DNA from: Tubulanus polymorphus
Taxonomy: Eukaryota > Animalia > Nemertea
Direction of reading: 5' to 3'
Length of the DNA: 64,000 nt
Assembly (NCBI RefSeq): GCF_964204645.1
Contig: NC_134028.1
Coordinates: forward strand, 12,695,263-12,759,262
The position numbers and the translations under genes were made by a program. Positions 33,125 through 64,000 of the stretch are shown one piece after another; position 1 is the stretch's first letter, and each line of letters begins with the position of its first letter. Below the pieces are notes generated by a model. It was not told the origin of the DNA and did no database searches. It worked only from the letters and a program-made list of their open reading frames with translations.

Positions 33125-35299
33125 TTAGCTTCACTTGGTCCTGTTGTCATGGCTCAAGGTGTCCGTTCTTTCCGATCCGACCCTTTAGCGTAGAATATTT
33201 ATGTTGCATTATCAGGATCACAGGGGGTGTATCCTTGTACATAGTTTGGGCTCATATCTGCAAGTATTAATTTCGCAAAATTCTGGGGGGGGCCCTGAGC
33301 TGGACGGACTCACTGTGGCCAACCGGTCTTCCCTGTGCTACAGTGCTCCATTCCGTGCTTGGGTAAGTGCTCTCTTTTTCCCTCTTACCTTCATTGAGCG
33401 GTGGTTTTTCTATCTACCTTTCCCACCATCCTTGTGCTAGGCTAGTCTAGCAAAAACCATAGGAAAGGGTACAGTACTCGACGGAAAAATTACAATTTTT
33501 GGAACTAAAATTTGTATTTCCGAGTAGTACTTACCCTTTCCTATGGTGGGAATCCCGCCCACCTGCCCCGCATAGCTAAAACCATAGGAAAGGGTAAGTA
33601 CTACTCGGAAATACAAATCTTAGTTCCAAAAATTGTAATTTTCAAGCAATGCCCTTGCTCCAAACCTCTAGCGTTTTCAAGGTAAACCACACTTTGCCCG
33701 TGGGCAATTTATTTCACTTCAAGTGTATGTTCCCGTTTGCTGATACGGATCACACATAAGGATTTACATATAAAGTGGGCAACGGGACCATGCATTTGTC
33801 TACGGGATAAGTGAAAATACGAATTATGGAGTACATAAAGACATGTAATTTAAAGGGAATAACGTTACTGAAAAACGGGACCAATTTATTTATACGGAAT
33901 AGGCATGTTTGTACGGTTTAACCGGACTAACCGAGGTTGATTGTATTGGGGGGTATGTCAATGACATGTAATTAAAAATAGCCAGAAAGGAGACTGCAAG
34001 ATACTCTGCCTTAGCTTGGCGGGTAACCTCTAAACACCGAATGATATCTATAGGTCCGCCGAACCTCATAATTTTTCGGAATACGAAACGGACCCGTTAC
34101 AACCAGAGGACCTCACTTGCCACATGATTCATTCAATCAAAATATTCTACAAGGTTCGGAAGCGGACCTAAGATTCAAGTAGAGAATTTATTATACATGT
34201 ACAATAAAAGTTATATGTTTTTGAGCCTCGTATCTCCTCATATAGCAAAAATGTTCAACGATAAATATTTGAAAAAACTCGTCATTGTCATCAGTTACAT
34301 CAGCAAGCGCCGCTGCGCCAAGATGTTGTGTACTTTATTCCACTGCTCACGATCTGTAGTAATTTGTTTTAGGATTTCAATATCTGATGTTCTAAAAACT
34401 GGGGAGCAATTTTTTTTTCATAAGAGTTTCCACCATTTTGTTTCGCAGTGAACACACGTGGAATGGCTGAACACAGTGGAGCACTGTGTCACTGTAGTGT
34501 AGGACTGTGCCCGCGTGAAGTCGCGTAGAAGAAGTGTGTACATATACTCTACTGTTAGTACACTGATACAGTATAGTTGTGTACGTTTCTCTACTTATCG
34601 AATGGAAAACCTGCTTATCAAACCCGGGCGTATAGCGCAACGTTTTCTTACTTGATCAAAATGTTTAAACCTTAAAGAGAAAAGACTTGTTGTTGAATCT
34701 GACGATTCTTAGAAATTTGCCCCACCGAGATCATTTTTTGAGGAAATCATACTAAATGCATAGAAAATTCGGATTTCCAAACCACTCTCCAAATGCTATC
34801 TTTGAAAGAATTGAATGATTTAGATTTCATCTTATATTTTCTCCTCACTCATCATTGTACAGTAAGTACTAATTTTCCGTTTCAAGCATGAGCGCGTTCA
34901 TTTAAAAAAGGCATAATGACTAAATACTCTACTCTTCACTGGAGGTCAACCCGGTTTGCGGATAAACACTTGATACACGAATAAAAATGCGAAAACGTCA
35001 GAAATTGATTAAGGCCTGATCATGTAAGGATGTAAAATCGTAGAAAAGGTTGGCGGGTATTTGACACGGTTTTGTTTGTATAAGTTATTGTATATATGTT
35101 GTTCTAGACCAAAGGTCAAGATGTCGAGCTCATAAAAAAATGAAAAATAAAATCTAGCGCACTCGCCCTCTCAACCTTTGATCTAGAACCACATATACAA
35201 TGACTCTAATAATTCCATATATATGAATATCATATATAAATGAAAATTTTATATATGAATAACTTCTAAAATCAATTTGATAAAAAATTTGTTATTAAA

Positions 35300-38200
35300 A
35301 TGGAAGCAAATAAGAAGTACTACTGTCAAACATGTAAAATCAATATGAATAAATCTCAAAAAGCAAGACATAATAAAACTAAAACACATTTAGAAAATAA
35401 ATTGAAATTAGAATATAATGATGATTTATTAGAAACTAAAATAGAGGAATTAAAGAATGAAAAAGAAATATATAAATGTGATACATGTAATCAATTATTC
35501 AGAAAAAAAAGATATTATAAAGAACATTTAAAATCTTAGTCATATTAGAAATATCAATAATGATATTTTAGGTGAAGATTATTTTGATAAAGATAATGAT
35601 AAGAAACAGAAGACAATTAAAAAAATAAAAAATCAATAAAATAAAAGACCATACATGGAAGATGTTAGAAATTATATTAATTCATTAGATAATAAAAAAT
35701 TAATAGAGATAACGGAAGCATTTGAAAGTGATATTGGTCCAGCAGCTATCAAGTTTAAATTTTATAAAGGTAAAACGTTAGAAGAAAAATATTAAAAATG
35801 AAAAATAGTTTAAAAATAATTAATGACGTAGAATATCCTAAAATTAGTGTATCTGCTGAAGTTAAATTTATAAAATCTGAATATAAACCAATACATATTA
35901 TAAATTCTCATTCACAACATATTATATCTAAACAGCATATAGATGATAGATAAGATAAATGTTATGATGAAGTAAAAAATAAAATAGAAGAGAAATATTT
36001 TGAAGGATCGGGTTTGATATTTGATGAGATAATATTTATTACGTTACATGTGTACAATACAAAATATAATAAATTAACTAAATCAAAACCAATTGATGAA
36101 AATAATTTATCATATTATAAAGATGATAATATTAATGGATCAAGTTATATCAAATTACCATTTAAAACTAATGCTGTTATAAATGTACAAAATTCTGATG
36201 ATAAGTGTTTTCTATGGACAATTATAAGTTGTTTACATCCTGCAATTGATCATATTTGTAGAGTATCAATTTATTGACAATTTGAAAATAATTATAAGAT
36301 AAGACAATTATCGTGTTAAAATTTAACAAATACCAAAAATAGAAAGAGATAATAATGTAAAGATAAATGTATTCGATTTAATCAAATTACCAAAAACAAA
36401 AGGTAACAATATAAAACATTATACACTAGAACCTTTATATCTATCAAAAGATTACGATTCAAATGATGTTATATATATATTATATCATTTCCAATTAATT
36501 AAACGATTAAACAAATTGATTTATTTTTTAAATCAAGATTATTTTGATAATAAAATATATCTATGTAGAAAATGTTTACATAAATTAAGAACTGAAACTG
36601 CATTGTTAAATCATGAACAATTATGTGATAATCATGATTATTGTAAATTGATTTTACCAAATGAAAAAGATAAAATATTAGAATTCAAAAAATATGATCA
36701 CAAAAATTAAGTACCATTTGTAACATATGGAGACTTCGAGTCATTGAATAAAGAACTTACTGACCAAGATAGAAAAGAAATATATTATAAAAGAAAGATG
36801 TTAAATTCTGGTGTAATGGATTATTCAGATCCTCCAATAACAAATACTATTAAAAAGATTCATCAATCAGCTGCAGCTTTCGGGCTATATATTAAATCTG
36901 ATTATCCTGAATTATTAAAAGGTGAACATTATCATTATAGAAATGTAAATGTTATCAATCATTTTTGTGACTTATTAATTCAATATGAAATGAAGTTTAG
37001 TAAATTATTAGATACAAATATAGAAATTATAATGACAGAACAAGATAAAGAAGAATTTGAGATCGCAGATGTTCTTATTGTGAAAAACTATTTAATTTTA
37101 ATGATCATTTGAATGGTAAATTTAGAGGTGCAGCGCATGAGAATTGTAACTTACAAGCTAAGAAAATAAATTTTGTTCCAGTTATATTTCATAATTTATC
37201 AGGGTATGATGCTCATTTATTCATCAAGCAACTATGTCATAAAATAGAAGAAATCAATAATGAAATAGAAAGATTAAATTCAAATAGATCAAAAGATGTT
37301 GCTAAAATACCAACTTATAAATTTAAAATGTTAGCTAAAATATCTGAAAATTATATATCTTTCCAATTTGGATGTCTAAGATTTATAGATTCATATAGAT
37401 TTTTAAGTAAAATATTAAAACAACATTATCCAAATAATGATTATTTTCAATTAATGAGATATAAAGGAGCAATTCCATATTCATTTTATAAAGCGCATAA
37501 TGATTTTAATATAACTGAATTATTAAAAGAAAAATTTTATGGTGAATTAAGATCCGAATATGTTAAAGATGGAGTTTATAATAGAACATTGAATATTTGG
37601 AAAGTTTCAAAATAAAAAAATCATGGACAATTAGTAGATTTATATCTAAAATCAGATGTATTATTATTAACTGATATATCTGAAAGGTTTAGAGATGTAA
37701 ATCTAAAATATTTTAATATTGATCCATGTCATTGTTATTCATCACCAGGTTTAACTTGGGACTGTGGATTAAAATTTACAGATATAAAAATGGATTTATT
37801 AACAAATATAGATCAATTATTATTATTTGAAAGATCTATATGAGGAGGTGTTTCAGGTGTATTAGGTGATAGATATTTCAATGTAAATGATAATCCTGGG
37901 TATAAGTTATTATATATAGATGCAAATAATCTATATGGTTGGGCAATGATGGAACCACAACCTTACGGAGTATTTCAAATAACTGAAATTTTACAGCACG
38001 AAAATGTTGATAAATTTGATTGGAAAAAAAGAATCTAGATATTGCAGATGATTCAGATACTGGTTACTTTTTTTTTGTAGATTTAGAATACCCTGAAAAT
38101 ATTAAATTTAAATCTAGAAATCTAGCATACTGTCCCGGACATAAAACTGTAATACATGAAGTATTATCAAATTATCATAAAAGAATTAAACCTGAAAATC

Positions 38201-39090
38201 ATATTCATACAGAAAAGTTAATGGTAACTCAGGAAGATAAATATAATTATGTAGTACATTATAGAATTTGAAAATTCTATTTGAATCAAGGAATGATTCT
38301 AAAAAAGTACATACATGTAGATATATTTCATTTAGTCAAACTAAATGGTTAGAAAAATATATAGATTTTTATCACCAAACAGAGAACTAAAGCTAAAACT
38401 GATTTTGAGAAAGATTTTTTCAAACTAATCAATAATGCATTCTAAGGTAAGACTTGTGAAAATATTAGAAAAAGAAATGATATCGAGTTAGTTAGTTATG
38501 GTAAAAGAATTAGACATTTACAAACATATCCTAAATTTATTGGTAACAGAGGAGAATATTTGATGAAAATTTAGCTGCTGTCAAAATGAAAAGAACTTCT
38601 ATGAAGTTCAATTAACCAATTTATGTTGGAGCATCTGTTTTAGAAATATCAAAATTATTAATGTACGAATTTTACTATAACGTATTACAACCACTTTTTG
38701 GAGAATTATTTTGATTTCAGTAATTATCCAAAAGATCATGAATTATTTAGTAATGATAATAAAATAGATCCTGGGAAGTTTGAGGATGAATTTGGTGGTG
38801 AAGAAATGATAAGAGTTCATTGGAATTCGATCTAAAATGTATAGTTATAAAACTAAAGAATATGAAGCTAAAGAATTGAAAGGAATTACCAAAAGTGTAG
38901 TAGAAAAAAATATTCATTTCAAAGATTACATCAATTGTATATTTAATGAAGAAGTTAGAAAAAAATAAGATGAAATGTTTAAGATCTGAAGATCATGAAA
39001 TGTTTATAGAAGAGATAGAGAAGATAAGTTTAAATCCATTTGATGATAAAAGATATATTCTGGATGACGGAATTAATACAGTCGCGTAAT
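35300..39090 (+). pseudogene. Protein-primed family B DNA polymerase with N-terminal C2H2 Zn fingers (copy 1)
   Basis: GSSYIKLP..NVQNSDDKCFLW, YGDFES, GKFRGAAHENCNL, FHNLSGYDAHL, CLRFIDS, DPCHCYSSPGLTWD, YIDANNLYGWAM, NNAF-GK, DDKR; many stops and frameshifts. Confidence 0.9.
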
Positions 39091-39155
39091 CCTGTAATAT
39101 ATGAATTAGTTGTATGATGTAGAGAATAATTAATAATTTTTTTATAATAATAAAT

Positions 39156-40200
39156 ATGAATATAACAGTAGGACCGAGTATATGGTTTGGGTTTGATTTT
39201 AAACATGGTAAAGAAATGAGAATTAAACTAAATGATGTAATTACTGATATTAAAAAAGTAAATCATTTAATAATGCATCAATGATTAATAAAGAAAATTA
39301 TAATATAGAAAAAGGAATTGATTTAATTAAAACATCTTTATAGTACATGTATTATGAATAAATGAAGATGGAATTATCGATGATATCAAAAATATATTAT
39401 CTAAAATATATGATAATTATAAAAGTAGTAATGAAATAAATGTTGAAATGATTATAACTTAATATTTTGAAGATAGTAATTTCTTTTCTAACTAAATGGC
39501 GGATCAGAAGTGGATAATAACTGGTTTATATAATGGAGCATTGCTATAAGTTGGAACTGTTGGTTATACAATGTTATTGAAGAAAGTATTTAAAATGGGA
39601 AATATTAATGTTGATAGATTTGATAACAATGATATTTTAAAATTAACATAAGCAGTTACTTTTTAACAATTGATTATTTGGAAAAACAAAAATTTATTCC
39701 TATTGATGGGTAATTTTTTGTTAAATAAATGGCATCTGCAATTATAAATATTATCGGATCGGCAATTGTTAACGCTTTAGCACTTACAGGTGGTGGTTAA
39801 AAATGGTTCATTATTAGAACAAAAAAGACATAACTTAGCGTTACAGAAATAAAATAAAGCAGCAGAAGAATATAGAGAAAAGAGGCAAAATTATATAGGT
39901 TATATTAACAAAGAACTATATAATCAAAATATTTCACATACAGATTTTAAGTCAGTTGATGATGCTATGAGTTTATATAACGCAGTAACAAATCGTGAAA
40001 AATTACATCTATATAAACCTAAATTATCAGATTATTATACCCCAAGTAAAGAACAACAACAATATGAAATAATTTGGATTTTAGGTGGAACAGTTATTGT
40101 TATATTTGTAGCATATTAATTTACCAATTAGTAATTCTTTTGCTAAATAAATGGATGATTTAGTTGATAATATTGATATTATTCCTCATGATATAAATAA
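39156..40200 (+). pseudogene. Cassette of small viral ORFs (MNITVGPS.., MADQKWIITG.., MASAIINIIGSAIVNALA.., MDDLVDNIDII..), copy 1
   Basis: Starts at 39156, 39496, 39729 and 40151, in the same order as copy 3 (61411, 61751, 62028, 62468); disrupted. Confidence 0.7.
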
Positions 40201-40219
40201 AACATTTCCAACCTATAAC

Positions 40220-41423
40220 ATTTCCAACCTATGTTTGAAGAATCTGGGTATGATATAAATGAAAAAGGTGCTAGACTTTTAGTAAAAGATTTGAAATTTT
40301 TAGATGGTGAATATTATTATCGTTTGAAAGATGATTCGGATTATTATTATATTTATATCACTTCGCAAAAATAGAAAAATAAGATTAAGATATTAGCAAA
40401 ATCAACTTTGCTTAAGTGAGAACCATCAAGAATTAAAAGAATAATTAATAGTAATGAAATAGAAAATGTTACTGACGCAGAAAAAAAGATAAATGAAAGA
40501 TCATTTCATCTAAAAATTAATGAATTTTTTGATACAATCAAAAATAATTTAGAAACAGAAACAACTTCTGAACAGAATATAACTTCCAAAACTAGTAATT
40601 TTAAATCAAGAGGAGTTCAAACTGAAAAACTTTTACCGAATGGGTTACTTGATAGAACAGATCAAGAATTAGAAGATATAAATATATTTTCTGATAAAAT
40701 AATTAGAGAAATTATTAGTGCAAGACTTGCATCTGATAAAATTTCGCATGATAAAAGTATGAGATTCTAAAATTAGAACTTTAAAAAAAGAAAAAACTGA
40801 TAAAATTAAAGAAATAGAACAATTAAAATTAGATAGAGATAATAAAGTTATTGAAGAAATTGAATTAAAAAAAATGCATATTGAGAAAAAGAAATTGATG
40901 ATTTAGAATATAACATAGAATAACAGAAAGAAGAAATGAAATTATTATTGAAATCATATGATTATGATATTAATAGATCAAAAGTTATTATTAAAGAGTT
41001 ATAATAAAACCAGATTCTGATATATCATTAAAGATAGAATAAAATTATTATTGAAGTTAGAAGGTATAACAATTCTTTCAATTCTAACAGCTGTAACTAT
41101 GGTATTTACAACAATAGGTTTAGCTATGACAAATTCTTTAAAATCTACACCAAGTCCTAACAAACCGGATAAACAACCAATAACAATAATTCTATACAAG
41201 ATAAAGGTTAGGATGGATTAAAAAAATATTAGCAAAATATTTATGGGAACTATCTAAAAAATCTGCTGCAGCTTTACCAGGAATTATTGCATCAATTGTT
41301 GGTTTTGTTTTAAAATCTGCTGGAAATGTTATTAGTTTTGCTGCTGAACATATTATTTTATTTTTGATAAGAGTTGTTAGTGCAATTATTTTTGGATTAG
41401 TGAATATGATAGAAAATAAATAA
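40220..41423 (+). pseudogene. Coiled-coil protein with hydrophobic C-terminus (putative viral membrane protein), 5'-deleted
   Basis: Charged K/E-rich region, then GITILSILTAVTMVFTTIGLAM and AAALPGIIASIVGFVLKSAGNVISFAAEHIILFLIRVVSAIIFGLV, read across frameshifts on the + strand. Confidence 0.6.
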
Positions 41424-41801
41424 TTAATTTTTTTCTTAAACAAATGAGTGGGGGTTATATAAATCCTTCTAAGAATTCTAGAATATCTAATGCAATTAAA
41501 GGAGTGAGATCTGATCATATAATTACTCATAATCCTTCTAATATCAATCCCGAAGAAACTTAATACGTTAGAATTCCACGATAACACAAAATCCTTTTTA
41601 TGTTCTAAATAGTTTTTATTTATCAGCTGATATAAAAGTAACTGGTCATGATAATAATTACGTTGTCGATAATGTTGGAAGATATTTGATTAAAGAATTA
41701 ACTATAAAGATTGGACCAGAAACAGTTTTTTCATTAGATGATTATGATTTATTTACGCATTGTAAAGATTTATGGTTAACAAAAGAAAATAGAAATGATA
41801 T

Positions 41802-42021
41802 GATAATAAGATAAAATCCCACTATTTACAGATTAAAAGAATTTAAAAACAAGAATTTATTTATTAAATCTAAAATATTTAAAAGACACGACGTTTCGAT
41901 CTCACCCTAGAGATCATCGTCAGGTGACGCCACCAATTCTTGTTTTTAAATTCTTTTAATCTGTAAATAGTGGGATTTTATCTTATTATCCGTTCACCAC
42001 GTTTGAGTGTGGTCATCGTTC
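41802..42021. mobile_element. Penelope-like element pLTR fragment (inverted arms plus tail) with TSD
   Basis: Perfect 56-bp inverted arms 41802-41857 / 41935-41990, a 31-nt tail 41991-42021, and TSD TAGAAATGATAT(GATA) at 41790 and 42022. Confidence 0.75.
41887..41926 (-). ncRNA. Minimal type I hammerhead ribozyme motif
   Basis: Minus strand reads CAC CUGACGA U GAUCUC UAGGGU GAGAUC GAAA CG UC GUG: core boxes, 6-bp stem II, 3-bp stem I and minimal stem III. Confidence 0.75.
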
Positions 42022-43206
42022 TAGAAATGATATGATATTTCAAGGAATTCAATCCTTAAATAAAAATAAATTGAGGTCAGGAGCTAATAATGCAATAGTA
42101 GATAATACCGCAGACAATTTGATTAAAAATATTTATGGATGTAAGTATAAAATTCCATTAGACTTTGAATCAATAAATAATAATGCGCCTTAATATAAAT
42201 ATGCAATACAAGAAGATATTATATTCGAAATAACATTTGCTCCTGTTAATGAAATTGTATAATCTAGCGTTATTAAAGATATGGGTTATAAATTATCGAA
42301 TATATATTTAGAATATGACACAGTAACTGATGAAAATATTGCTAACACAATTCAAACTAAATACAATCAAGGATTTTCATTATTATATGATTATATTGAT
42401 AAATTTAACACTCTTACTATTAATGCAAATGATGAAATAATTAATGAGAATATTAACTTCCCAAGAAGATCTATCAAAGGTATATTAATATTTTTTACCA
42501 TTGCAACATATTCTAATGGAGCAATAAAAGTTGATAATTATTATAATCCCGAAATATCAAAAGTTGAAATAACTATCGAAGGTATAGGAAATAAAATATT
42601 TCGTCAAGGAATGAGAATGATTGATCGATGGGTTGAAATTTTAAAAAAAACATTTTATGAATGAAAAAATAAAATCATCCGAAGATTGTAATATTAATCA
42701 AATTGATTACTATACCGGCAATAAATATGCATTATGGTTAGATTTTAGAACAACTGAAGATAACTTATTACATGGTTCTGGTAAAAAACTACAGAACACT
42801 AAAGATGGAATTCAATTATTCATGAAAAAGTAAAAGGGAAGTTTGAATTATAAAATGCACATTTATATTATATCTGACGCGCAATTAAATATTATAAATT
42901 CTCAATAATTAGATAGTGTTATGTATTAAAATTTTTATTTTGATAAAACTTTTTATAATAAATGGAAGGCGGAATATATGAAATACAAATTCCAAGTGAA
43001 ATTATATCAGATATATATTATATAATACCTTATGAATAAAGTAAGTATTTTGGAGAATTCTATAATCAATTCAAATATAGAATAAGTAAAATAAATAATA
43101 TTAAAAGCGACGTGGTTGATAATTTAAGTAATGAAATTGATAATAATGTTTTACCTTCTACATCTCATAATGTTTAACCAGTTATTATCCACTTCTGATC
43201 CGCCAT

Positions 43207-50103: not shown

Positions 50104-51968
50104 TGTACCGACTGCTAAATAATGGATACATAAGCCCGCGATAACTAGCGGCAGAAAAAACCAAAACACAAACTAGAGGACTGTATTTAAAATATAAAAG
50201 AAAAATTACAACTTTATTGCTCAAAGTAATTGCCGATTCCAAAATTGTCCAATAAAACGATCTCAAAAATTTGTGAAATGTCAGGCGCCAAAAACTCACA
50301 CAACGCAGTAAACACGGACGATACGATCGCTAACCAGCTATTAATCCAAACAAGCGCGTAACTACGAATACAATTAAGGCCTTAAACGGAATTACGGAAC
50401 GGAACACCACGATAACGAACGCGCACGCAAATTAATTCCAAATCCAACGGTTGATCGATCATCAAATGAGAACGACTCCGAATTCCATCCTCTCAAGATG
50501 AGTTACAGCTCCTATGGAACATCTATGGGTTGAATCATCTTCGGCTACCAGTATGACACAGACTCTCGAAGGATATATGATTACACGTAGCTAGACTAAT
50601 TAGGTCATACGACTGCAACAGATACGTCACTAGCTCATAAACCAGATTAATCAGACCAAGACAAAGTTCACTGTGACAAAAATATCAATTAAAAGCTCTT
50701 ACTATATCATCATTGCATGATTTACCATACCAATGCCTCTGAAGGCTCTCTGAAACATTCTCTCATTAATTTTAGAAAGTAATCTGCTCTTCAGAAATAC
50801 AAAACAAAAAACAATGGCTACCAGCCTCCTCCCAGCTTCCATTCACTAATTCCCTATTGTGCAATCACAATGGGTGGTGGCAGCACCATCAATAGGACAA
50901 AAAAAATCAAATTCAACCAACTTCATTACATTACTCCTAGCCACAACATACTCCCCTCTGAAAATCGTAAAATATATGCGATTGTCATATATCTAATGTA
51001 TACAATACTAAAATAACGCTTATCATACAGCCGTCAACTGCTCAGTGAACTAACTATAAAGTCTCTAAAACTACTTAGGTCTTTTCAGACAAGTCACTAT
51101 ACGTACAGAACCAAGGTCCACTTCACAACCCACAATAATAACTGTCACTCTGTCAAATCTAAGATTCACCAATATGCTCTTCCATAGCTTCCAGTAACCT
51201 CAGTCGCTGTACCGGACGACTCAATTTTCCTTTCACTGTCTTTACAATGACATTCCTCACCAAGCCATCTCTTCCCGGTAGAATTTTCTCAACTCTTCCT
51301 AGTGGCCACTCTTGTTTTCTTGGATTTTCATCAGCGATAAGAATAACATCTCCTATTGCAACGTTTTTTTGCACATCCTGCCATTTCTTCAAAAGGTTAA
51401 GTTGTGATAAATACTCTTTGGTCCAACGAGACCAAAACTGTTTTGCTAAAGACTGCCTGTATGCCCATCTCTTGGTGAGTGCAGTGGTTTTCATTGCTGC
51501 AGGCAGGTCAGGCACAGTTTGCGGGCTTAGACCAATTGTTAGCATTCCTGGTGTGAGCGTTTGCTCATCGTTCATGTTAGAAAAAACTTCAGTTAGCGGT
51601 CTGGAATTCAGTTGTGCCTCGATATCTGTTAATACAGTATACAACTCCCAGATTTTTAGTCTAGATCTCCCAAGTATCTTCTTCAATGGTGTTTTCACAC
51701 TCCGGACTATTCTTTCAAAGAAACCTCCCTGCCACGGTGCTTTAGCCGAATTAAATCTCCACTCGATACCAAGTACAGCCAAACGTCTAGTAATTCTCTC
51801 ACGACTTCTGGCCTCTAGAAATATTCTCCTCAGTAGATTAGCTCCACTCTTGAAAGTCAAAGCATTATCTGAGACTAGTAGAGCACATCTACCTCTCCTG
51901 TTCACCATTCGTTCAAAGGCTGCTGGGAATAACTCTGTGCTCAAATGAAAGGCTGAATCCAAGAACAT
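50104..51968 (-). mobile_element. BEL/Pao LTR retrotransposon 3' remnant (integrase, PPT, 3' LTR)
   Basis: ORF 51159-51968: SDNA, APWQGGFFERIVRSVK, LNSRPL, FWSRWTKEYL, WPLGRV..PGRDGLVR. Minus-strand PPT AGAGGGGAG near 50951-50959, then an LTR running TG (50948) to CA (50104) with an internal AATAAA. Confidence 0.9.
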
Positions 51969-53459: not shown

Positions 53460-56400
53460 AAGACACAATAAAACTAGAACACATTTAGAAAATAAATTAA
53501 AGTTAGAATATAAAGATGATGTATTGGAAACTAAATTAGATAAATTAAAGAATGAAAAAGAAACATACAAATGTGATACATGTAATCAATCATTCAGTGA
53601 TAAAAAATATTATAAAGAACATTTAAAATCTAAAAGTCATATTAGAAATATGAATAATGATATTTTAGGTGAAGATTATTTTGATAATGACAATGATAAG
53701 AAACATAAGACAATTAAAAGAATAAGAAATAAATTAAACAATAAAAGACCATACATGGAAGATGTAAGAAATTATGTTAATTCATTAGATAATAAAGAAG
53801 AAATAGAGATAACTGAAGCATTTAAAAGTGATATTGGTCCAGCTGCTATTGAGTTTAAATTTCATAAAGGAAAAACATTAGAAGAAAATAAAAAACATTT
53901 AGAAAATATGAAAAATATTATAGAAATAATCACAGATGTTGAATACCCAAAAAATTAGCATATCTTCTAAAGTAAAGTTTATAAAATCTGAAGATAAACC
54001 AATATATAATATAGATTCTCATTCACAACATATTATTGCAAAACAACATATAGATGATAAATTAGATGATAAATTAGATAAATGTTATGAAGTAAAAACT
54101 AAAATAGAAGAGAAATATTTTGAAGGATCAGGTTTAATATTCGATGAAATAATATTTATGACTTAACATGTTTATAACACAAAATATAATAAGTTAACTA
54201 AATCAAAACCAATTGATGAAAATAATTCATCATATTATAAAGATGATAATATAAATGGATCAAGTTATATTAAACTACCATTTAAAACAAATGCTGTTAT
54301 AAATGTACAAAATGAAGATAATAAATGTTTTCTATGGACAATAATTAGTTGCTTACATCCAGTTGAGGATTATAATAAACATACTTATAGATTAACAAAT
54401 TATAAACAATTTGAAAATAATTATAAGATAGATAATTATCCTGTTAGAATTAAAAATATCCCGAAAGTAGAAAGAGATAATAATCTAAGAATAAATGTAT
54501 TTGATTTAATCAAATTACGAAATACAAAAGGTGATAAAATTGAACATTATACATTAGAACCTTTGTATTTATCAAAAGGTTGTGATTCAAATGGTGTTAT
54601 AGATACATTATATTATGAAAAATTATATGTGGATAAAACAAATCGATTTATTTTTTAGAACAGAAAATAACCACAATAAAATATATCTATGTAGAAAATG
54701 TTTTCATAGATTCAGTAATGAAAGCACATTATTAAATCATAAACAATTATGTGATAATCATGATTATTGTAAAATAGTTTTACCAAATGAAAAGGATAAA
54801 ATATTAGAATTCAAAAAATATGATTACAAGAATAAAGTACCATTTGTTATATATGGAGATTTTGAATCACTAAATAAGGAACTAACTGATCAAGATAGAA
54901 AAGAAATATATTATAAAAGAAAGAAACTAAACTATGAAAATGATTTTTCAGAAGAACCACCAATAACAAATACTATTAAAAAGATTCATCAATCAGCAGC
55001 AGCTTTTGGATTATATATTAAATCTTATTACCCAGAACTAATTAAAAGTGAATATTATAATTACAGAAATGAAAATTTTATCAATCATTTTTGTGATTTA
55101 TTAATCGAGTATGAAATATAATTTTATGAAAAGTTAAATGAAAATAAAGAAATAATTATGACAGAAGATGATAAAGAAGAATTTGAGTTTGCAGATAAAT
55201 GTTATTATTGTGAAAAACTATTTAATTATAAAGATAAAAAAGTAAGAGACCATGATCATTTGAATGGAAAGTTTAGAGGCGCAGCGCAAGAGAATTGTAA
55301 CTTACAAGCTGAGAAAATTAACTTTGTTCCAGTGATATTTCATAATTTATCAGGGTATGATGCTCATTTATTCATCAAACAGTTATGCCATAAAATAGAA
55401 GAAATCAATAATGAAATAGAAAGATTATATAAATAAAAGTTGTATAAAAGTATTATCGGACTTGATAAAAACCACCCGAACTACGTTGAATATAAAAAAT
55501 ATCGTAACGCCTATAATTCTGCTAAAAGAGCAGCAAAGGAAAGATTCTACAGTGAAAAATTAACTAATTTTAGAAATAACGGTAGAAAACTTTGGTCCAC
55601 TATGAAAGATCTTCTCGGAAAAACAAATAATAAAGATTGCATTCCTGATATCTTTAATATAAATGGTAAATTAAGTAATAACAAGCAAGACATTAGTATT
55701 GGTTTTTGTAAATTCTTCAGTTCTGTAGGTCATGAGTTATCAAAAAACTTCCAAAACCAAGAACAGATTTCAAAGATTATATGCCTGATATATAGCAGTA
55801 ACTTGTTTTTATTTCCGACGGATGAAAGTGAAGTTGAAAAAATGATTTATAATTTTGATCCCAAACCGTCCGCGGGTCACGATGATATTAGTAGTATTCT
55901 TTTAAAGCACATCGGTAACACAATTGCAAAACCTCTTGTTACAATTTTTAATAAATCAATAGAAACTGGAATCTTCCCGGATGCATTTAAAATAGCCAGT
56001 GTTACACCTATCTATAAAAGAGACGATAAAAGGAGCTTTGAAAACTATCGACCGATATCACTATTGCCAACCATCTCTAAAATTCTTGAAAAGATAATAC
56101 ACAAGCGATTATATGGCTATTAGGTTAAGTACTCTATCTTATATAAAAGTCAATATGGTTTTAGAACTGACCATGCTACCAGCCATGCTAGCATGGAACT
56201 AATAGGAAATATAATAAAATCATTTGAATCTAACTGTTTTACACTAGCCGCATTTATTGATTTGAGTAAAGCATTCGATTGCCTAAATATTGAATATCCA
56301 ATTCATAAATTATATGTATATGGTATAAGAGGAAACGTTTTGACATGGTTTAAAAGTTACCTAGAAAAGCTCTCAATGTATGTTAACTTCTTCAGTATTC

Positions 56401-59400
56401 AATCTGAAATATCACACATTAACTACGGTATACCTCAAGGTTCCGTATTAGGACCATTACTGTTTTTAGTATACATTAACGATATGCACATGTGTCTGAA
56501 AAAATGTAAACCTATCTTATTCGCCGACGACACGACCGTATATATTAGTGGAAGCTCAAATGATTATCTGATACAATGAAAATGACTTGAATATACTACA
56601 AGATTGGTTTACTGCTAATAATTTAACTGTTAACATTTTTAAAACAAAAGTAATTCTTTTTAAACCAAATAGAATTAAAAATATTAAGAATCAAGATTAT
56701 ACGATAAAAGTAGACAACAAGGAACTTAATTTAGTATCATCAACATGCTTCCTTGGATTACATTTAGACGAGTTTCTTGATTTCAATTTACACATAAAAT
56801 CTGCACCAAAATAGCTAGTCAAATTTATTTAATTAACTCTGTTAAACATTTAGTACCTACATATTGTTTAAGACAACTTTATTTCAGTTATATCCATTGT
56901 CATTTTACGTACTCACTCATCTCATGGGGCCCTCTTATCTTAAAAAGAAACCTGTCCTGATTAGAAAAATTACAGAAAAAAGCCGTTCGGATTATTTCTA
57001 AATCAGCATACAATAGCCCTACATATCCACTCTTTCGCAAATCAAAAATTCTAAAATTCCAAGACATGATCCAGTTAGAAATACTTAGAAACGCATATCA
57101 GCTTATCAACAATGAACTACCAGCACCGATTATAGACTTATTTCAAAAGAATTCGGTATACCATCAGTACAATACTCGTCAGCACAATCATCCCCGAAAC
57201 GCTCACCATAAGAAAAGCATTTATAATAAAAGTTTCCTCAATTTAATCCCAATAATGTGGCAAAACTCCAATAACAACCTTAAATCAAAGAAATCACTAA
57301 ATTCCCTCAAACAATCATTTAAAAGCAATAAACTCTTAAAATACTGAATTTCAAACAATCATTTATCTGAGCCATGTTTACCGTACTGGTATGTTGTGTG
57401 TGAATCTGTGAATGTCTGCATGCTTGTGAAGAATGAGTGTGTGTAGAGTGGGTGCCCAGATCTACAAGCATTTGCTTCACTGGGTTCCTTCATTTGATAT
57501 TGACACATTTTATACTTATTTATATTCATGTATGGATATCATGTTATAAATTGTTTCAATTTCTTTGAAATATAAAGATTATTAGATTAGATTAAATTCA
57601 ACTAGATCAAAAGATAAAACACCAACATATAAATTTAAAATGTTAGCTAAAACATCTGAGAATTATATATCATTCCAATTTGGGTGTCTAAGATTTATAG
57701 ATTCATATGGATTTTTAAATAGTTCATTAGATAATTTATCAAAATCACTAGTTGATGATGAATTAAGAATATTAAAGCAACACTATCCAAATAATGATGA
57801 TTTTCAATCAATGAGATATAAAGGCGCAATTCCATATAGTTTTTATAAATCACATAATGATTTCAATATAACTGAATTATTAAAAGAACAATTTTATAAT
57901 GAATTAACAAATGAATATGTTAAAGATGAAGTCTATAATAGAACATTGAATATTTGGAATCATTTTGGAATGAAAAATCATGGACAATTAGTAGATTTAT
58001 ATTTAAAATCAGATGTATCATTATTATCTGATATATTCGAAAGGTTTAGAGTTGTAAACTTAAAATATTGTAATATTGATCCTTGCCATGGTTATTCATC
58101 ACCAGGGTTAACTTGGGATTGTGGTTTAAAATTTACAGATATAAAAATGGATTTGTTAACAAATATAGATCAATTATTATTATTTGAAACATCTATAAGA
58201 GGAGGAGTTTCAGGTGTATTAGGGGATAGATATTTCAATGTAAATGATAATCCTGGATATAAGTTATTATATATAGATGCAAATAATCTATATGGTTGGG
58301 CAATGATGGAACCTTAGCCTTATGGAGTATTTGAAATAAGTGAAGTTTTACAACATGAAAATAATGATAAATTTGATTGGAAGAAAAGAATTCTAGATAT
58401 TGCAGATGATTCAGATGCTGGTTACTTCTTTGTTGTAAACTTGGAATATCCTGAAGATAAAAAATTTAAATCTAGAAATCTAGCATACTGTCCAGAACAT
58501 AAAACTGTAACGCATGAAGAATTATCAAATTATCAAAAATGAATTAAACCTGAAAATCATATTCATACAGAAAAGTTAATGGTAACTCAGGAAGATAAAT
58601 ATAATTATGTAGTACATTATAGAATGTTGAAGTTTTATTTGAATCTAGGAATGGTTCTAAAAAAAAGTACATAGATATATTTCATTTAGTCAATCTAAAT
58701 GGTTAGAAAAATATATAGATTTTTATCACCAAACAGAGAACTAAAGCTAAAACTGATTTTGAGAAAGATTTCTTCAAACTAATGAATAACGCATTCTATG
58801 GTAAGACTTGTGAAAATATTAGAAATAGAAATGATATTGAGTTAGTTAGTAATGGTAAAAGAATTAGACATTTACAAACATATCCTAAGTTCATAGGTTA
58901 CAGAATATTTGATGAAAATTTAGCTGCAGTTAAAATGAGGAGAACATCTATGAAATTTAATAAACCAATTTATGTTGGAGCTACAGTTATAGAAATATCA
59001 AAGTTATTAATGTATGAATTCTATTATAACGTATTACAACCTCATTTTGGAGAAAAGCATATAGAAATCTTATATTTTTATACAGATTCTTACATATTAA
59101 AGATAAAAACTAATAACATAACGGATGATTTAAAAACATTAAAACATCATTTTGATTTTAGTAATTATCCTAAAGATCATGAATTGTTTAACAATGATAT
59201 AAAAAGGTGCCTGGTAAATTCAAAGATGAATTAGGTGCTGAAGAAATGATTGAATTCATTGGTATTAGATCTAAAATGTATTCATATAAAACTAAAACTC
59301 ATGAATCAAAGAAATTGAAAGGAATTACCAAAAGCGTTGTTGAAAAGAATATTCATTTCAAAGATTACATCAATTGTATATTCAATGAAGAAGTTAGAAA

Positions 59401-59587
59401 ACATAAGATGAGATGTTTAAGATCTGAAGATCATGAAATGTTTAATGAAGAGATAGAGAAGATAAGTCTAAACCCATTTGATGATAAAAGATTGGTTGCT
59501 TATGGTTGTAATTTAGATGAAAACTTAAGATTTAAAATGGAAGAAACAAAAGAGAAGGAAATAATGAACAGGATTCTAACGTGTTAA
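53460..59587 (+). pseudogene. Protein-primed family B DNA polymerase (copy 3), split by a LINE
   Basis: C2H2 finger CDTC..HLKSKSH, VIYGDFES, CYYC..VRDHDH (endonuclease VII-like insert), YLKSDV, RGGVS, YIDANNLYGWAM, MNNAFYGK, YFYTDS (degenerate YxDTDS), KKLKG, DDKR. Confidence 0.92.
55428..57588 (+). mobile_element. 5'-truncated CR1/L2-group LINE inserted in PolB
   Basis: NYRPISLL, FIDLSKAFD, GIPQGSVLGPLLF, FADDT; 3' stem-loop near 57450-57488; (ATTAG)n tail; AGATTA duplicated at 55422 and 57589, whose removal restores IERLNS as in copy 1. Confidence 0.92.
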
Positions 59588-60337
59588 TCAAATTTTAATT
59601 AAAATATGTAATATAAATGGAGAGTAAACAAGCAAACAGTGAGAACAACAAATCATTTCTATATAGAATAAAGGATACTACAAATGTTGTGTCTTTATTG
59701 TCTTTAGTACTTTTAGTACATAAAGAATAAATCTTTATTTTATAAGTACTGAATAAAATTATTTTCAAAACTAATAAACTACTAAAGACAATAAAGACAC
59801 AGATTTATCATTGCTGAAACAGTAATATATAATAAATCTTTGAGATAAACAAATATTACTGAATCAAATATATATAAAAAATCTGTGGAATAAAAAAAAA
59901 TATTATTATTGAAAAAGTAATATATAAAATCTATCAGATGAATAAATATTATTATTGAAAAAGTAATATATAAAATCTATCGGATAAATATATATTATTG
60001 TTGAAACAGTAATATATATATTTATGTCTTTATCTCTTTAAAAGTTTAGTAGTTCTATTTTATTTTTAAAGTATTGATAATATAAAGATTTATTCTTTAT
60101 GTACTAAAAGTACTAAAACTACTTAAGACAATAAAGACATAGAGGGTATTATATTCATATTATAAATCCCTGTCAACCTTTAACCTGAAACAATTTATTC
60201 CCTATTATTCTTGAAATATTAATCTAATAACTTCTAAAATCAATTTTAATTAAAATATTTATTATAAATGGAGAGTAAACAAGCACACAGTGAGAACTAC
60301 AAATCATTTTAGATAGAATAAAGATACTTCAAATGTC
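59586..60337. repeat. Intergenic palindromic region bracketed by a ~100-bp direct repeat of a gene start
   Basis: 59586-59687 matches 60238-60337; inverted blocks ~59689-59750 and ~60080-60140; internal direct repeat aatattattattgaaaaagtaatatataaaatctatc x2. Confidence 0.7.
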
Positions 60338-60619
60338 AAATCAGTAGATTATAAATTTAAGAAGTTAACAGAATTAACAATTCATAAGTAATATCTAATT
60401 ACAAATATTGATACAGTTACTAATAGATATGGTAGTAAATTAGTTATCCACTTAGAATATGAAGGATTGAAAGGAAATACATATAAATTCAGAACATATT
60501 TACCAGATAGATTTCATAGATTATCAAGTGAAGATTTAGAAGAATTATGTTCTGGAGATTTCTATTTCATATACAAAGGTAAGAATGAAAAAGGGCACCA
60601 TGAAATAGATTTCGAATAA
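60268..60619 (+). pseudogene. Small viral ORF, possible OB-fold ssDNA-binding protein
   Basis: FKKLTEL..YLITNIDTVTNRYGSKLVIHL..FRTYLPDRF..FYFIYKG beta-rich pattern next to PolB; stops present; function is inference. Confidence 0.4.
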
Positions 60620-60636
60620 GAAAATATGTAAAATAA

Positions 60637-61394
60637 ATGGTAGAATTAAAAGAATACAGAATATTTGTTGATTCTAGAAGACTTACAAATTATAAATCAC
60701 ATAATTTATTAGTACAATTAGATAGAGAATTTAAGAATTGTGTTGATTTAGAATTAGTAAATGTAAGTTTATGTTACTCATTTTACAATATATCGAATAA
60801 AACTATTGAACATAGAGCCTTTTTAATTTTTGATAAAGGTAAAAATGAATGGTCCTATATATATTTAAAACCAGGGTTATATAATTTAGATACATTGTCA
60901 CAAGAAATTAAAAGAAAAGCCTGGCAAAAATTAGGTAATAATTCCAGGTTTAGTATTAGATTTTTAAAAAGTGATAGTTCTGATAGAATAGAGATAAGGT
61001 TGTCTAATATTGAAAAACATAAATTTATGGTAAAAAACCTATAGCTAAACTGTTAATTCCTCCAGATAGATCTTTTACAAATATTGATGCTGCTACACCA
61101 AACTTAATACCTTACACGCATTTTTATATTTATTGCAATTTAATTGATCCTACAAAAACATTTGAAGCAACTAAAGATATAACTTGTAATTCCGGTTTAT
61201 TGAATATTTTACCGTTGAAGAATGTGAAAGAATTTGGAACGCAAATAAATCATAATTTAGCTGAGTGTGATTTCAAACCATGCATTCCTAAATTTAATAA
61301 TTTTAGATTAGAAATTAGAAATCATAATGGATATTTAATTGATTTGAATAACTTTCCTGTGATATATGAATTAGTTATCAGATGTAGAGAGTAA
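60637..61394 (+). pseudogene. Penton / minor capsid protein-like (single jelly roll), one frameshift near 61044
   Basis: IFVDSR..LELVNVSLCYSFYNI, LKPGLYNL, FYIYCNLI, RLEIRNHNGYLIDLNNFPVIYEL: the motif order typical of Polinton/virophage/NCLDV minor capsid proteins. Confidence 0.7.
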
Positions 61395-61410
61395 TTTTTT
61401 TGATATATAA

Positions 61411-62902
61411 ATGAATATAACAGTAGGGCCGAGCATATGTTTTGGGTTTGATTTTAAACATGGTAAAGAAATGAGAATTAAACTAAATGATGTAATTACT
61501 GATATTAAAAGTAAATCATTTAACAATGCATCAATGATTAATAAAGAAAGTTATAATATAGAAAAAGTAATTGATTTAATTAAAACACCTTTAGAATATT
61601 ATGAATTAAATGAAGTTGGAATTATTGATGATATTAAAAACATATTATCCAAAATGTATGATAATCATAAAAGTAGTAATGAAATAAATGTTAATAATTA
61701 TCACTAGAATAACTAAATACTTTGAAGATAGTAATTTCTTTAATAAATAAATGAGTGATAATAAGTGGATAATTACTGGATTATATAATGGTGCCTCCTA
61801 TCAGTGGGAACTGTTGGTTATTCAATGGTATTAAAAAAAGTATCTAAAATGGGAAGTGTTAATGTTGATAGATTTGATATAAATGATATTTTAAAATTAA
61901 CGCTAGCAGTTACTTTATCTAATTTGACTATTATTTGGAATTTATTTTATTATTTTTTACTAACGATTATTTGGAAAAACGAAAATATATTCCTCCCACA
62001 TAAATGCATAATTTTTTTGCTAAATAAATGGCATCTGCAATTATAACTATCATAGGATCGGCAATTGTTAACGCTTTAGCATTTACTGGTGGTGGATATT
62101 TATCTAAGCATATTGATAAAAATGGTTCATTGTCAGAAATAAAGACATAATTTAGCATTAGAGAAATACAATAAAGCAGCAGAAGAATATAGAGAAAAGA
62201 GACAAAACTATATGGATTATATTAACAAGGAATTATATGATCAGAAGATTTCACATAGAGATTTTCAATCAGTTGATGATGCAATGAGTTTATATAACGC
62301 AGTAACCAATAAAGAAAAATTACATCTATACAAACCTAAATTATCAGATTATTATACCCCAAGTAAAGAACAACAGAAATATGAAATAATTTGGATTTTA
62401 GGTGGAACTGTTATTGTTATATTTGTAGCATATAAATTTACTAATTAGTAATTTCTTTTCTAAATAAATGGATGATAAAGTTGATAATATTGATATAATT
62501 CCTCATGATATAAATAAAACTAAATTAGAATTATATTTGGAAAAACAAAAATTAGAATTTGAAAGTGACTTAAAAATAAAAAAGAAAAAATATTTAAAAA
62601 GTAAAATTATATATTATTTTATTATCAGTGGTTCAGTTACAATTAGTTCTGTAATAACATTTTTAGTAATATTCAGTCCATTAACACCTTTAGCTATATC
62701 AATTTGCGTGCTAGGATTATCATCAAGTGTTTTAACTGGTATAAGTTCAAAATTAAATATAAAAAGTAATAAAGAAAAAATCAAAACTAGTACAAAAGAA
62801 ATTAATAAATAAAAAAATACACTAGATTATATAATAAGTTTAAATGGAAATATTACAGTTGAAGAACAAGATAAATTATTAAAAGAATTAATAAATTATT
62901 AA
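61411..62902 (+). pseudogene. Cassette of four small viral ORFs, three with hydrophobic segments (copy 3)
   Basis: Starts at 61411, 61751, 62028 and 62468; hydrophobic stretches IITIIGSAIVNALAFTGGG, IIWILGGTVIVIFVAY, IIYYFIISGSVTISSVITFLVIF, LAISICVLGLSSSVL. Confidence 0.7.
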
Positions 62903-62918
62903 TTTTTTAATTATATAA

Positions 62919-64000
62919 ATGGGGTTTCCAAAAGCTTTCCAATATAATAAATCAATTAAATATAATATCCCTGCAATAGATTTTAATAAAGATATTTCAT
63001 GTAGAAATGAAGTTTTAGATTCATTAATTGATTTAGAAATTTATGTTACTGAAACTAATAATTTTAATGTTAAAATGGAAAATATATTTCATGTGTATAC
63101 AATTAATTTTAAAAATTCAAATGAGGCAAAACAATGGTTATTAAAATCTAATATGAAATATTGTCAGAACCAATTAAATTTTGCAGTTTATTGTGCAACA
63201 ACAGGGTGCGGTATTAGTTGGAATAGATCATTTAGATAAACCAAGTTTACCATTGATGTTATCACTTTTTAGATTTCATACATATTTTCAAATAAAATTA
63301 ATATTAGATGAATTAGAATGTTCTTTACCAGGTTCAAAATACTTTAATGAACTAAATAATAATATTAATTTTTCTAAGTTTTATAAAATATGTAATGAAT
63401 TTAATATTAATTCAAATAATGATTTTAGATCAAAAATTGGAACATTGGGTGGATTAGGAATATTATATACTAAAGAATTTGGAAAAATAATGACAAATAC
63501 AGATATAAGAACACTAAATTGGAATGAATTACCAAAATATTGTAATAATATACAACAACAAAATAATAATGGTTGGATTAATTTCATTTTAGAAAATAGT
63601 GAAGGTTTTACAAAATCAGGCATACAAAGAATAAATCAATCAATTAGAACTTATTTGATTTGTATTTTAGGTGCGCAAGTTGAAACAAGATCACCAATAG
63701 TTGGAAATGATAACACTTCATTTGATGCGCAGAAACAATTCAAAGTATTATTTGAAGATTCCATTCATAATGATAAAAATAGATCGATTCCAGAAAACAT
63801 TGTAAGATATCAAAATTATTTAGATAAATCACATATTAGATTAAATTATTGTATAGGCCCTAATCTATTAATTATTTCTAATGATTTAGTATTAAAGATG
63901 GGAAATATAATTGGTTATAATAATCTAATTAAAACTGCAACAATAAATAATTCATTTGGATCGAATGATATAAATAAAAAGATAATTATTGCTCCAAAAT
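62919..64000 (+). pseudogene. Larger viral ORF of unknown function, one frameshift, truncated by the window end
   Basis: MGFPKAF..QLNFAVYCATTGCGISW, continuing in another frame as SLFRFHTYFQ..LPG..GIQRINQSIRTYLICILGAQVETRS. Confidence 0.6.

What the first reader, a model, noticed from the sequence alone, without database searches (positions are those of the whole stretch)
35083..64000. Multi-copy endogenous pPolB/jelly-roll virus with membrane-protein cassette and no visible integrase, ATPase or protease
Seen: at least four related pieces (35083-43176 +, 43177-46013 -, 48770-50103 -, 53460-64000 +). Overlapping them gives a consensus order: terminus, ZnF-pPolB, small SSB-like ORF, penton, MNITVGPS ORF, three small hydrophobic ORFs, CATTGCG ORF, gap, coiled-coil membrane protein, MCP-like gene. 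Established: canonical Polintons/Mavericks carry a retroviral-type integrase, an A32-like packaging ATPase and an adenain-like protease, have 6-bp TSDs and typically AG-rich termini; none of these is recognisable here. Inference: a distinct lineage of small linear dsDNA animal virus, possibly membrane-containing, endogenised passively and repeatedly from several diverged variants. Caveat: every copy is deleted or truncated, so the missing genes could lie in lost segments.
Basis: partly seen in the sequence, partly recalled or inferred. Interest (0 to 1): 0.85.

Follow-up and report, generated by a model that had tools for sequence, protein, structure and literature searches.

The report
Animal virus fossils with poxvirus promoters
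These are four broken copies of a Polinton-like DNA virus in what is likely an animal genome; close relatives do carry the integrase and packaging motor missing here, and most gene starts bear a poxvirus-style late-promoter signal, so the virus likely lived as a parasite of a poxvirus-like helper virus.

Summary
A metagenome contig (L002, 69-82% DNA identity) has the same order. The headline is wrong: L002 carries an rve-chromodomain integrase and an A32 ATPase just after the capsid gene, where the window's copies break off. Reads from a run labelled as the same species as the best holder cover capsid, integrase and ATPase at similar depth. Both termini start 5'-AGT. The capsid is a double jelly-roll (Z 24). 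What survives: a wide family with a fixed module of five to seven predicted membrane proteins of unknown fold, and no adenain-type protease found (no positive control). New here: on the window's side of the family tree, 69 of 86 gene starts read TAAATG with a T-block at -14/-12, against 0 of 154 on the other side (GC-matched 42/43 vs 0/20). This matches the published vaccinia late promoter. The window keeps it at 12 of 17 starts. Best reading: an integrating Polinton-like virus likely transcribed by a pox-like helper's polymerase, that is, an animal virophage. Helper dependence is inferred, not shown.

The parts
35083..35207 (+). Left terminus of piece 1, starting 5'-AGT; folds into a long hairpin
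   Evidence: Aligns with piece 2's terminus; DNA fold -20.4 kcal/mol, z -7.0, 0 of 200 shuffles as good
35300..39089 (+). Piece 1 protein-primed DNA polymerase B pseudogene (zinc fingers at the front); many stops and frameshifts
   Evidence: POLB profile hits 36128-39089; zinc-finger Pfam hits; 84-87% DNA identity to piece 4
39156..40204 (+). Piece 1 cassette: MNITVGPS ORF, 75-aa hydrophobic ORF (39496), 139-aa two-TM ORF (39729), stub of SLATT-like ORF (40151); all broken
   Evidence: tblastn to L002 genes; TAAATG at 39496, 39729, 40151
40225..41423 (+). Coiled-coil protein with predicted C-terminal TM helices, 5' part lost in a deletion that also removed the 441-aa gene
   Evidence: 35-71% identity to L002 485-aa ORF; 2-3 predicted TM segments in 26 of 26 relatives
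41444..42930 (+). Double jelly-roll major capsid pseudogene, split by a ~200-bp palindromic insertion (about 41805-42010) and by frameshifts and stops
   Evidence: 65-73% identity to L002 MCP; relative P0032 model pLDDT 76, Z 24.0, rmsd 3.5 over 333 residues to a PBCV-1 capsid chain; insertion
42962..43176 (+). Truncated ORF after the MCP, TAAATG start, no homolog among the 80 loci; piece 1 ends here, before the place of integrase and ATPase in L002
43177..46028 (-). Piece 2: terminus (46028, 5'-AGT), unrelated ORF region, 24-bp minisatellite (43925-44918), 3' part of penton candidate (43863-43587), MNITVGPS ORF (43557), start of 75-aa ORF (43206)
48679..50104 (-). Piece 3: internal polymerase fragment of a more diverged variant
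   Evidence: 69-78% DNA identity to pieces 1 and 4
53460..59500 (+). Piece 4 polymerase pseudogene (endonuclease VII and pPolB domains), interrupted by a LINE at about 55437-57580
   Evidence: Pfam Endonuclease_7 E 1.7e-6, DNA_pol_B_2 E 9.5e-5, RVT_1 in the insert
60268..60619 (+).
   Evidence: 35% identity to L002 125-469
60637..61394 (+). Penton (minor capsid) candidate, frameshifted; assignment inferred from size and position, fold not tested
   Evidence: Family in 50 of 80 loci; no PDB sequence match
61411..62902 (+). Piece 4 cassette: MNITVGPS ORF (61411), 75-aa ORF (61751), 139-aa ORF (62028), SLATT-like ORF (62468); all four start TAAATG
   Evidence: SLATT_fungal E 0.0013 on the L002 copy
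62919..64000 (+). 441-aa family protein with predicted C-terminal membrane anchor and conserved Cys/His; one frameshift; runs off the window; TAAATG start
   Evidence: 29 homologs; 336 metagenome stretches; model without fold match

Best explanation
These are four decayed copies of an integrating Polinton-like virus whose relatives encode a double jelly-roll capsid, A32 packaging ATPase and rve integrase, and whose genes start with a poxvirus-type late-promoter signal, so it was likely transcribed by a pox-like helper virus in the cytoplasm, like a virophage. SHOWN: gene content and order in L002; capsid fold of a relative; integrase and ATPase in relatives and in same-species reads; the TAAATG/T-block signal and its confinement to one side of the tree; codon-biased divergence between copies; later decay (LINE, palindromic inserts, deletions). 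INFERRED, in order: (1) integrase-mediated insertion of several variants, then decay; (2) in a cell infected by a pox-like virus, that virus's late RNA polymerase reads the element's genes; (3) pPolB copies the linear genome from the AGT ends; (4) capsid, penton and five to seven tail-anchored or two-TM proteins build a particle with an inner membrane, filled by the A32 ATPase, without a separate maturation protease. I give about 0.9 to 'integrating Polinton-like virus', 0.75 to 'no adenain protease', and 0.55 to 'depends on a pox-like helper polymerase'.
For: L002 order and Pfam hits. Read depth on L002 in run X5: MCP bins 239-750, integrase bins 102-620, ATPase bins 512-795, from 1,934 Mb read. 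MCP Z 24.0. Start signal: all L002 genes read TAAATG except the downstream half of its interrupted integrase frame (15 of 16 ORF starts); window 12 of 17 starts, against 75 of 889 ATGs in pieces 1, 2 and 4 overall. First ATG of every family ORF: 69 of 86 on the window's side of the 441-aa tree, 0 of 154 on the other; non-start ATGs in the same loci 155 of 3580; GC 0.33-0.45 loci only, 42 of 43 vs 0 of 20; only 3 of 69 TAAs close a long upstream in-frame stretch; T 74% at -14 and 70% at -12, T 83% at -3. Vaccinia late promoters: TAAAT usually followed by G at the start codon, with a T ten bases upstream among other Ts (PMC11980589 passages). Precedent: only virophages with helper-like late promoters are reactivated (passage in 10.1101/2025.10.09.676808); PLVs found in entomopoxvirus occlusion bodies (PMC11296320 abstract). 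No RNA polymerase gene among the scanned ORFs.
Against: No helper virus, transcript or particle was seen. No complete genome from the TAAATG side was in hand, so an element-encoded factor in unseen parts is not excluded. Two loci on that side lack the motif (L006 0/9, L007 0/2). The tree is the quick version, has long branches and composition bias, and is unrooted; related loci are not independent. Many L002 starts also read TATA just before ATG, which fits asfarvirus late promoters too. Hosts of the metagenome loci are unknown. The polymerase start of piece 1 is TAAAATG, not TAAATG. L002's integrase frame has one in-frame stop, and the TIR-bounded L033 has no integrase, so integrase is not universal. 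X5 is tied to the window only by species label; 10,860 of its 11,730 laid reads are under 90% alike, and they do not show that the three genes lie in one element.
Confidence: 0.55

Rival explanations
1. An autonomous, nuclear Polinton/Maverick-type element transcribed by host Pol II; TAAATG is an inherited lineage habit (initiator or translation signal) unrelated to any helper.
For: Own pPolB, integrase and ATPase; high read depth suggesting many genomic copies; the other side of the family has no such motif yet the same module.
Against: T at -3 in 83% of starts runs against the purine-at-minus-3 preference of animal translation (recalled; A is 56% at -3 on the other side). The upstream T-block sits where vaccinia's does. 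The motif is kept at unrelated genes, including the dNK and zinc-finger genes.
Confidence: 0.25
2. Helper-dependent, but on another cytoplasmic large DNA virus (asfarvirus-like, egovirus-like or an unknown group) whose late promoter resembles the poxvirus one.
For: TATATAAATG-type starts in L002 also contain the asfarvirus-like TATA(TA) late motif. L006, on the same side of the tree, has TATAGA at 6 of 10 starts (0.1 expected) and a weak VLTF3 hit. The capsid's near matches include faustovirus (Z 21.7) and ASFV p72 (Z 19.7).
Against: The invariant core across loci of GC 0.20-0.44 is TAAATG fused to the start codon; L045, L051 and L070 have it at 19 of 19 starts, mostly without TATA.
Confidence: 0.15
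3. One reading: an integrase-less, ATPase-less virus endogenised passively.
For: None of these genes is in the window. L033 is TIR-bounded and has no integrase. L002's integrase is interrupted. Piece 1's post-MCP ORF differs from L002's.
Against: The closest relative has both genes directly beyond the break point; same-species reads cover both at capsid-like depth; L033 has the ATPase.
Confidence: 0.05

Closest known systems
Polintons/Mavericks/adintoviruses, groups 1 and 2 (Polintoviricetes)
   Same: pPolB, rve integrase with C-terminal chromodomain, A32 ATPase, double jelly-roll MCP, 5'-AG ends, terminal inverted repeats in L033, multi-copy in a likely animal genome.
   Different: No adenain-type protease, phospholipase or gasdermin-like gene found (no positive control). 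A fixed set of unrecognised membrane proteins instead. Best capsid fold matches are giant-virus MCPs. Clade-wide TAAATG starts.
Animal PLVs outside the two Maverick groups (cnidarian MCP outliers, PMC10120064; Octocorallia/Hydrozoa/Bivalvia ATPases near Aquintoviruses, 10.64898/2026.06.19.733378; PLV-like coral elements, PMC11131425)
   Same: Animal-associated; replicase swapped for an SF1 helicase in L042; three ATPase relatives are filed under lucinid-clam symbiont bins, consistent with bivalve hosts (host link inferred).
   Different: In the passages read, these papers give a sentence or a tree clade and no gene module or promoter. Identity with this family is likely but untested, as their profiles were not available.
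Entomopoxvirus-associated PLVs (PMC11296320)
   Same: Small integrative jelly-roll viruses proposed to parasitise poxviruses.
   Different: They encode an adenovirus-type protease and mostly a phospholipase; the main text has no occurrence of 'promoter' or 'TAAAT'. Found in occlusion bodies rather than by a cis signal.
Mavirus/EMALE virophages of Cafeteria
   Same: Works like it: integrated virus whose gene starts carry a large virus's late promoter, with different clades carrying different motifs (passage; cf. L006).
   Different: Protist host and mimivirus-type helper; virophage capsid (mavirus Z 15.0 vs 24.0 for PBCV-1); virophages have a protease as a core gene.

Membership tests
Polinton-like supergroup (Polisuviricotina) | [quoted passage not shown] | tested here: met
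   Relative P0032 model: Z 24.0, rmsd 3.5, 333 aligned; top 14 rows all DJR capsids or kin; 129 viral matches at E<=0.001
Polinton-like supergroup (Polisuviricotina) | A32/FtsK packaging ATPase | tested here: met
   In L002 and L033, in 29 of 80 loci, in same-species reads; lost from the window's pieces
Polinton-like supergroup (Polisuviricotina) | [quoted passage not shown] | tested here: inconclusive
Polinton/Maverick (Polintoviricetes) | Protein-primed DNA polymerase B | tested here: met
   PF03175 on the window piece (E 9.5e-5, below Pfam's cut-off) and on L033 (E 6.4e-19); profile hits across pieces 1, 3, 4
Polinton/Maverick (Polintoviricetes) | rve integrase | tested here: met
   L002, L031, L042; reads. 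Variable: absent from L033, interrupted in L002
Polinton/Maverick (Polintoviricetes) | Adenain/Ulp1-type maturation protease | tested here: inconclusive
   No peptidase family in 30 + 94 ORFs; among unassigned families only the 441-aa protein has both conserved Cys and His; L033 has no free gene slot. No known polinton protease as positive control; leans absent
Polinton/Maverick (Polintoviricetes) | Terminal inverted repeats starting 5'-AG | tested here: met
   Both window termini start AGT; L033 has a 133-nt 99% inverted repeat and AGTAGT at its first bases. No window copy has both ends
Polinton/Maverick (Polintoviricetes) | 6-bp target-site duplication | not testable with these tools
   No two-ended copy with flanks; no whole genome held
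Polinton/Maverick group 1 or 2 versus Aquintoviricetes | Placement in published MCP/ATPase clusters | not testable with these tools
   No named reference sequences or group profiles in hand; Atlas clusters are unnamed and of mixed taxa
Virophage-like lifestyle | Late promoter shared with a large DNA virus | tested here: met
   Sequence match to the published vaccinia late consensus; function of the motif untested
Virophage-like lifestyle | Replication only during helper infection | not testable with these tools
   No helper or transcript data in hand

The most novel reading that the evidence does not exclude
A large, so far undescribed clade of protease-less, inner-membrane Polinton-like viruses are virophages of poxviruses (or their near kin) in invertebrates. 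They sit in the host genome in hundreds of integrated copies, every gene wired to the poxvirus late promoter, while sister clades with the same virion module are wired to other helpers (TATAGA in L006) or to none. The promoter would then be a readable record of unknown invertebrate poxviruses and a candidate heritable antiviral system in an animal.
Probability: 0.4. Interest if true: 0.85.

Novelty: new variant of a known kind. Interest (0 to 1): 0.62.

Why it matters
Whether animal Polintons make particles, and whether they need a helper virus, is a long-open question. A clade-wide, position-fixed match to the poxvirus late promoter makes it testable with a reporter assay and with 5'-end RNA data, and predicts pox-like viruses in hosts where none is known. 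The family is large (1,193 representatives at 50% identity match the MCP profile at E<=1e-10) and carries several conserved membrane proteins with no known fold, which bear on how small jelly-roll viruses acquire an inner membrane.

Tried and rejected
No whole genome held. Viral-contig scans found no relative with P0001, A1, A2 or A3, so no virome support for free particles. 441-aa model (mean pLDDT 66; residues 308-428 low): no Foldseek match at E<=0.001 in PDB or BFVD, best Z 4.5 of 48,161 chains, no usable Atlas hit; this does not show a new fold. PDB profile searches with penton, post-ATPase, 441-aa and 139-aa alignments: nothing below E 0.05. No RNA holder listed. Earlier-findings look-ups were empty. 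Pieces 1 and 2 as one TIR-bounded element: rejected, the ends are alike over only about 170 aligned bases with many mismatches and have no shared flanking duplication. 46029-46964 as the right arm of piece 1: not supported; 46787-46964 is a host repeat and the rest has no homolog in the loci. A vaccinia early-promoter-like A-rich TGAAA motif near both termini and a low sense-strand count of TTTTTNT in L002 (5 vs 77 antisense): uncontrolled for A-skew, not used. TAAATG as a stop-start overlap or a GC artefact: rejected. One search chose starts by alignment column (58 of 93 in AT-rich loci, 3 of 170 in the rest); it was replaced by the first-ATG rule. The careful tree did not finish; the quick tree was used. 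One search scanned 94 ORFs: most of the 132 listed minus antisense shadows and redundant family members, plus five from other loci.
Full report
OBSERVATION. Self-comparison shows four related AT-rich pieces: 35083-43176 (+), 43177-46028 (-), 48679-50104 (-) and 53460-64000 (+). Piece 1 vs 4 is 83-87% identical, piece 2 vs 1 and 4 74-78%, piece 3 vs 1 69% and vs 4 71-78%. All are pseudogenised. Piece 4's polymerase holds a LINE, piece 1's capsid gene a ~200-bp palindrome, and piece 1 has lost the 441-aa gene by deletion. In 8 of 8 polymerase segments compared between pieces 4 and 1, and 3 of 3 between 4 and 3, third codon positions differ most. So the variants diverged as working genes before they decayed. 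The two termini align and both start 5'-AGT; piece 1's folds into a hairpin (z -7.0). The host is likely an animal, inferred from BEL/Pao-, DIRS- and LINE-like neighbours (assignments partly recalled). No whole genome is held.

RELATIVES SETTLE THE 'MISSING GENES'. The 63178 frame found 29 homologs. Their alignment found 336 metagenome stretches, of which the best 80 were kept. L002 (11,483 bp) matches pieces 1, 2 and 4 at 69-82% over the longer DNA segments. Its integrase frame has one in-frame stop. Piece 1 ends just after the MCP and piece 4 leaves the window before it. Of the 80 loci, 31 hold the MCP, 29 the ATPase and 14 the integrase; most are too short to hold all. Run X1 holds 38% of the sampled words of window 57586-64000, and X5 is a raw-read run with the same species label. 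Laid on part of L002 at 80% likeness, X5 gives depth 239-750 over the MCP, 102-620 over the integrase core and 512-795 over the ATPase, and 0 over three bins in the integrase's 5' part; X1-X3 show the same pattern. From 1,934 Mb read this would be of the order of hundreds of copies if the genome is 0.5-2 Gb (size unknown, inference; free virus in the sample cannot be excluded). Against this: the reads do not link the genes, and L033, bounded by inverted repeats, has the ATPase but no integrase.

WHAT THE FAMILY IS. The MCP relative P0032 folds as a double jelly-roll: Z 24.0 to a PBCV-1 capsid chain, 21.7 faustovirus, 19.7 ASFV p72, 15.0 mavirus, 11.1 adenovirus hexon. Its profile matches 1,193 representatives at E<=1e-10. 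The longer loci share one module: penton candidate, 441-aa protein, coiled-coil protein, MCP, ATPase, post-ATPase protein, 130-, 75- and 139-aa proteins and a SLATT-like protein, with integrase and pPolB or a helicase. Hydropathy predicts TM segments in 34 of 60 441-aa proteins (C-terminal), 26 of 26 coiled-coil, 15 of 17 139-aa, 21 of 21 SLATT-like, 10 of 17 130-aa, 14 of 21 post-ATPase and 3 of 17 75-aa proteins. Controls: 0 of 19 MCPs, 0 of 20 ATPases, 0 of 8 integrases, 6 of 36 pentons. No peptidase family appeared in Pfam scans of 30 and 94 ORFs. Among the unassigned families only the 441-aa protein keeps both Cys and His. With no positive control, the absence of a protease is likely rather than shown.

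THE START SIGNAL. In L002, 15 of 16 ORF starts read TAAATG, most behind a run of T; the exception is the downstream half of the interrupted integrase. The window keeps TAAATG at 12 of 17 starts that I could place; overall 75 of 889 ATGs in pieces 1, 2 and 4 have it. A quick tree of 73 441-aa proteins splits the loci. The window, L002 and the 22 motif rows lie on one side with L006 and L007; 45 rows with no motif form the other (support 97), and long-branched L064 is uncertain. Using the first ATG of each family ORF: 69 of 86 on the window's side, 0 of 154 on the other; non-start ATGs 155 of 3580; loci of GC 0.33-0.45, 42 of 43 vs 0 of 20; only 3 of 69 could be a long upstream frame's stop. T is 74% at -14, 70% at -12 and 83% at -3. 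Related loci are not independent, so these counts describe one clade-wide trait, not 69 events. The vaccinia late promoter is described as TAAAT, usually followed by G at the start codon, with a T ten bases upstream among other Ts (PMC11980589). That is this pattern. Asfarvirus late promoters use TATA(TA) (PMC11788076), which overlaps many L002 starts but not most of those in L045, L051 and L070. L006 has a different motif, TATAGA.

MECHANISM. Shown: an integrase-bearing jelly-roll virus family, multiple diverged insertions, decay, and a pox-type signal at gene starts. Inferred: copies wait in the genome; a pox-like virus's late polymerase transcribes them in the cytoplasm; pPolB copies the linear DNA; the membrane proteins and capsid build a particle with an inner membrane, filled by the ATPase. 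This is how mavirus-type virophages use a helper's late promoter (passage in 10.1101/2025.10.09.676808).

AGAINST WHAT IS KNOWN. Canonical Polintons have a protease in 74% of a 72-element set (PMC4028283), so its absence alone is not new. Animal elements outside the two Maverick groups have been noted: cnidarian MCP outliers (PMC10120064), octocoral, hydrozoan and bivalve ATPases near Aquintoviruses (10.64898/2026.06.19.733378), PLV-like coral elements (PMC11131425), and PLV-rich bivalve genomes (10.1101/2025.04.19.649669). This family may be among them; I could not test that. Holin-like and SLATT genes are common in this subphylum (10.64898/2026.10.13.758929). Poxvirus-associated PLVs exist but have a protease, and that paper's main text never mentions promoters (PMC11296320). 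Searches pairing TAAATG or poxvirus promoters with polintons listed no paper whose title or abstract start describes this; I did not open the three hits, and the library lacks most subscription journals.

WHAT I READ. Passages only: PMC11161782, PMC11071296, PMC4028283, 10.1101/2024.03.23.586382, PMC11980589, PMC11788076, 10.1101/2025.10.09.676808, PMC10120064. Abstract plus passages: PMC11296320. Abstract, passages and section 6: PMC11131425. Parts 2-3 of 6: PMC8502044. Abstract and first part of section 10: 10.64898/2026.10.13.758929. Passages and sections 5-7: 10.64898/2026.06.19.733378. Passages and section 7: 10.1101/2025.04.19.649669. I opened no supplements; those of the two 2026 preprints and of PMC8502044 and PMC11131425 may already hold members of this family.

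VERDICT. Observation partly confirmed, headline refuted, residue interesting. New variant of a known kind; interest 0.62. The animal-virophage-of-poxviruses reading has probability 0.4 and would deserve 0.85.

Noticed in passing
window 46029-46786: AT-rich segment directly beyond piece 2's terminus, with broken ORFs bearing CxxC pairs (weak zinc-ribbon Pfam hits); no homolog among the 80 loci. Possibly a fragment of another viral element.
   Followed up: partly
window 51159-51998 (-): Integrase C-terminal part with DUF5641 (E 1.8e-28), typical of BEL/Pao retrotransposons (recalled); it is not the virus's integrase.
   Followed up: partly
window about 26950-33270 (+): GC-rich retroelement with RT- and tyrosine-recombinase-like frames, DIRS-like by recalled motifs.
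   Followed up: no
window 1167-4830 (-) and 16088-18397 (+): Two near-identical (98-99%) LINE copies in opposite orientation.
   Followed up: no
window 59586-60336: Palindromic insertion (59690-60139) between two ~100-bp direct repeats after piece 4's polymerase.
   Followed up: partly
L033 1-13235: Relative that starts at its AGTAGT terminus with no flank, has terminal inverted repeats, pPolB, ATPase and a tail-fibre-like gene, but no integrase; may be a free linear genome.
   Followed up: partly
L006 1-10290: Relative with Bcl-2 (E 2.3e-18) and weak VLTF3 genes and its own start motif TATAGA (6 of 10 starts, 0.1 expected).
   Followed up: partly
L042 9279-12458 (-): Same virion module paired with an SF1 helicase instead of pPolB.
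   Followed up: no
L002 10343-10981 (-): Deoxynucleoside kinase (E 1.7e-31), also with a TAAATG start.
   Followed up: no
window 35954-36277 and 54167-54658: The polymerase's front half has an N-x-D-x-K-C-F-L-W motif, recalled as the vOTU protease motif described for polinton pPolBs (PMC11161782 passages); not tested.
   Followed up: no
P0386, P0389, P0404: Family ATPases annotated as proteins of Candidatus Thiodiazotropha bins, likely host-clam viral DNA misbinned as bacterial.
   Followed up: no
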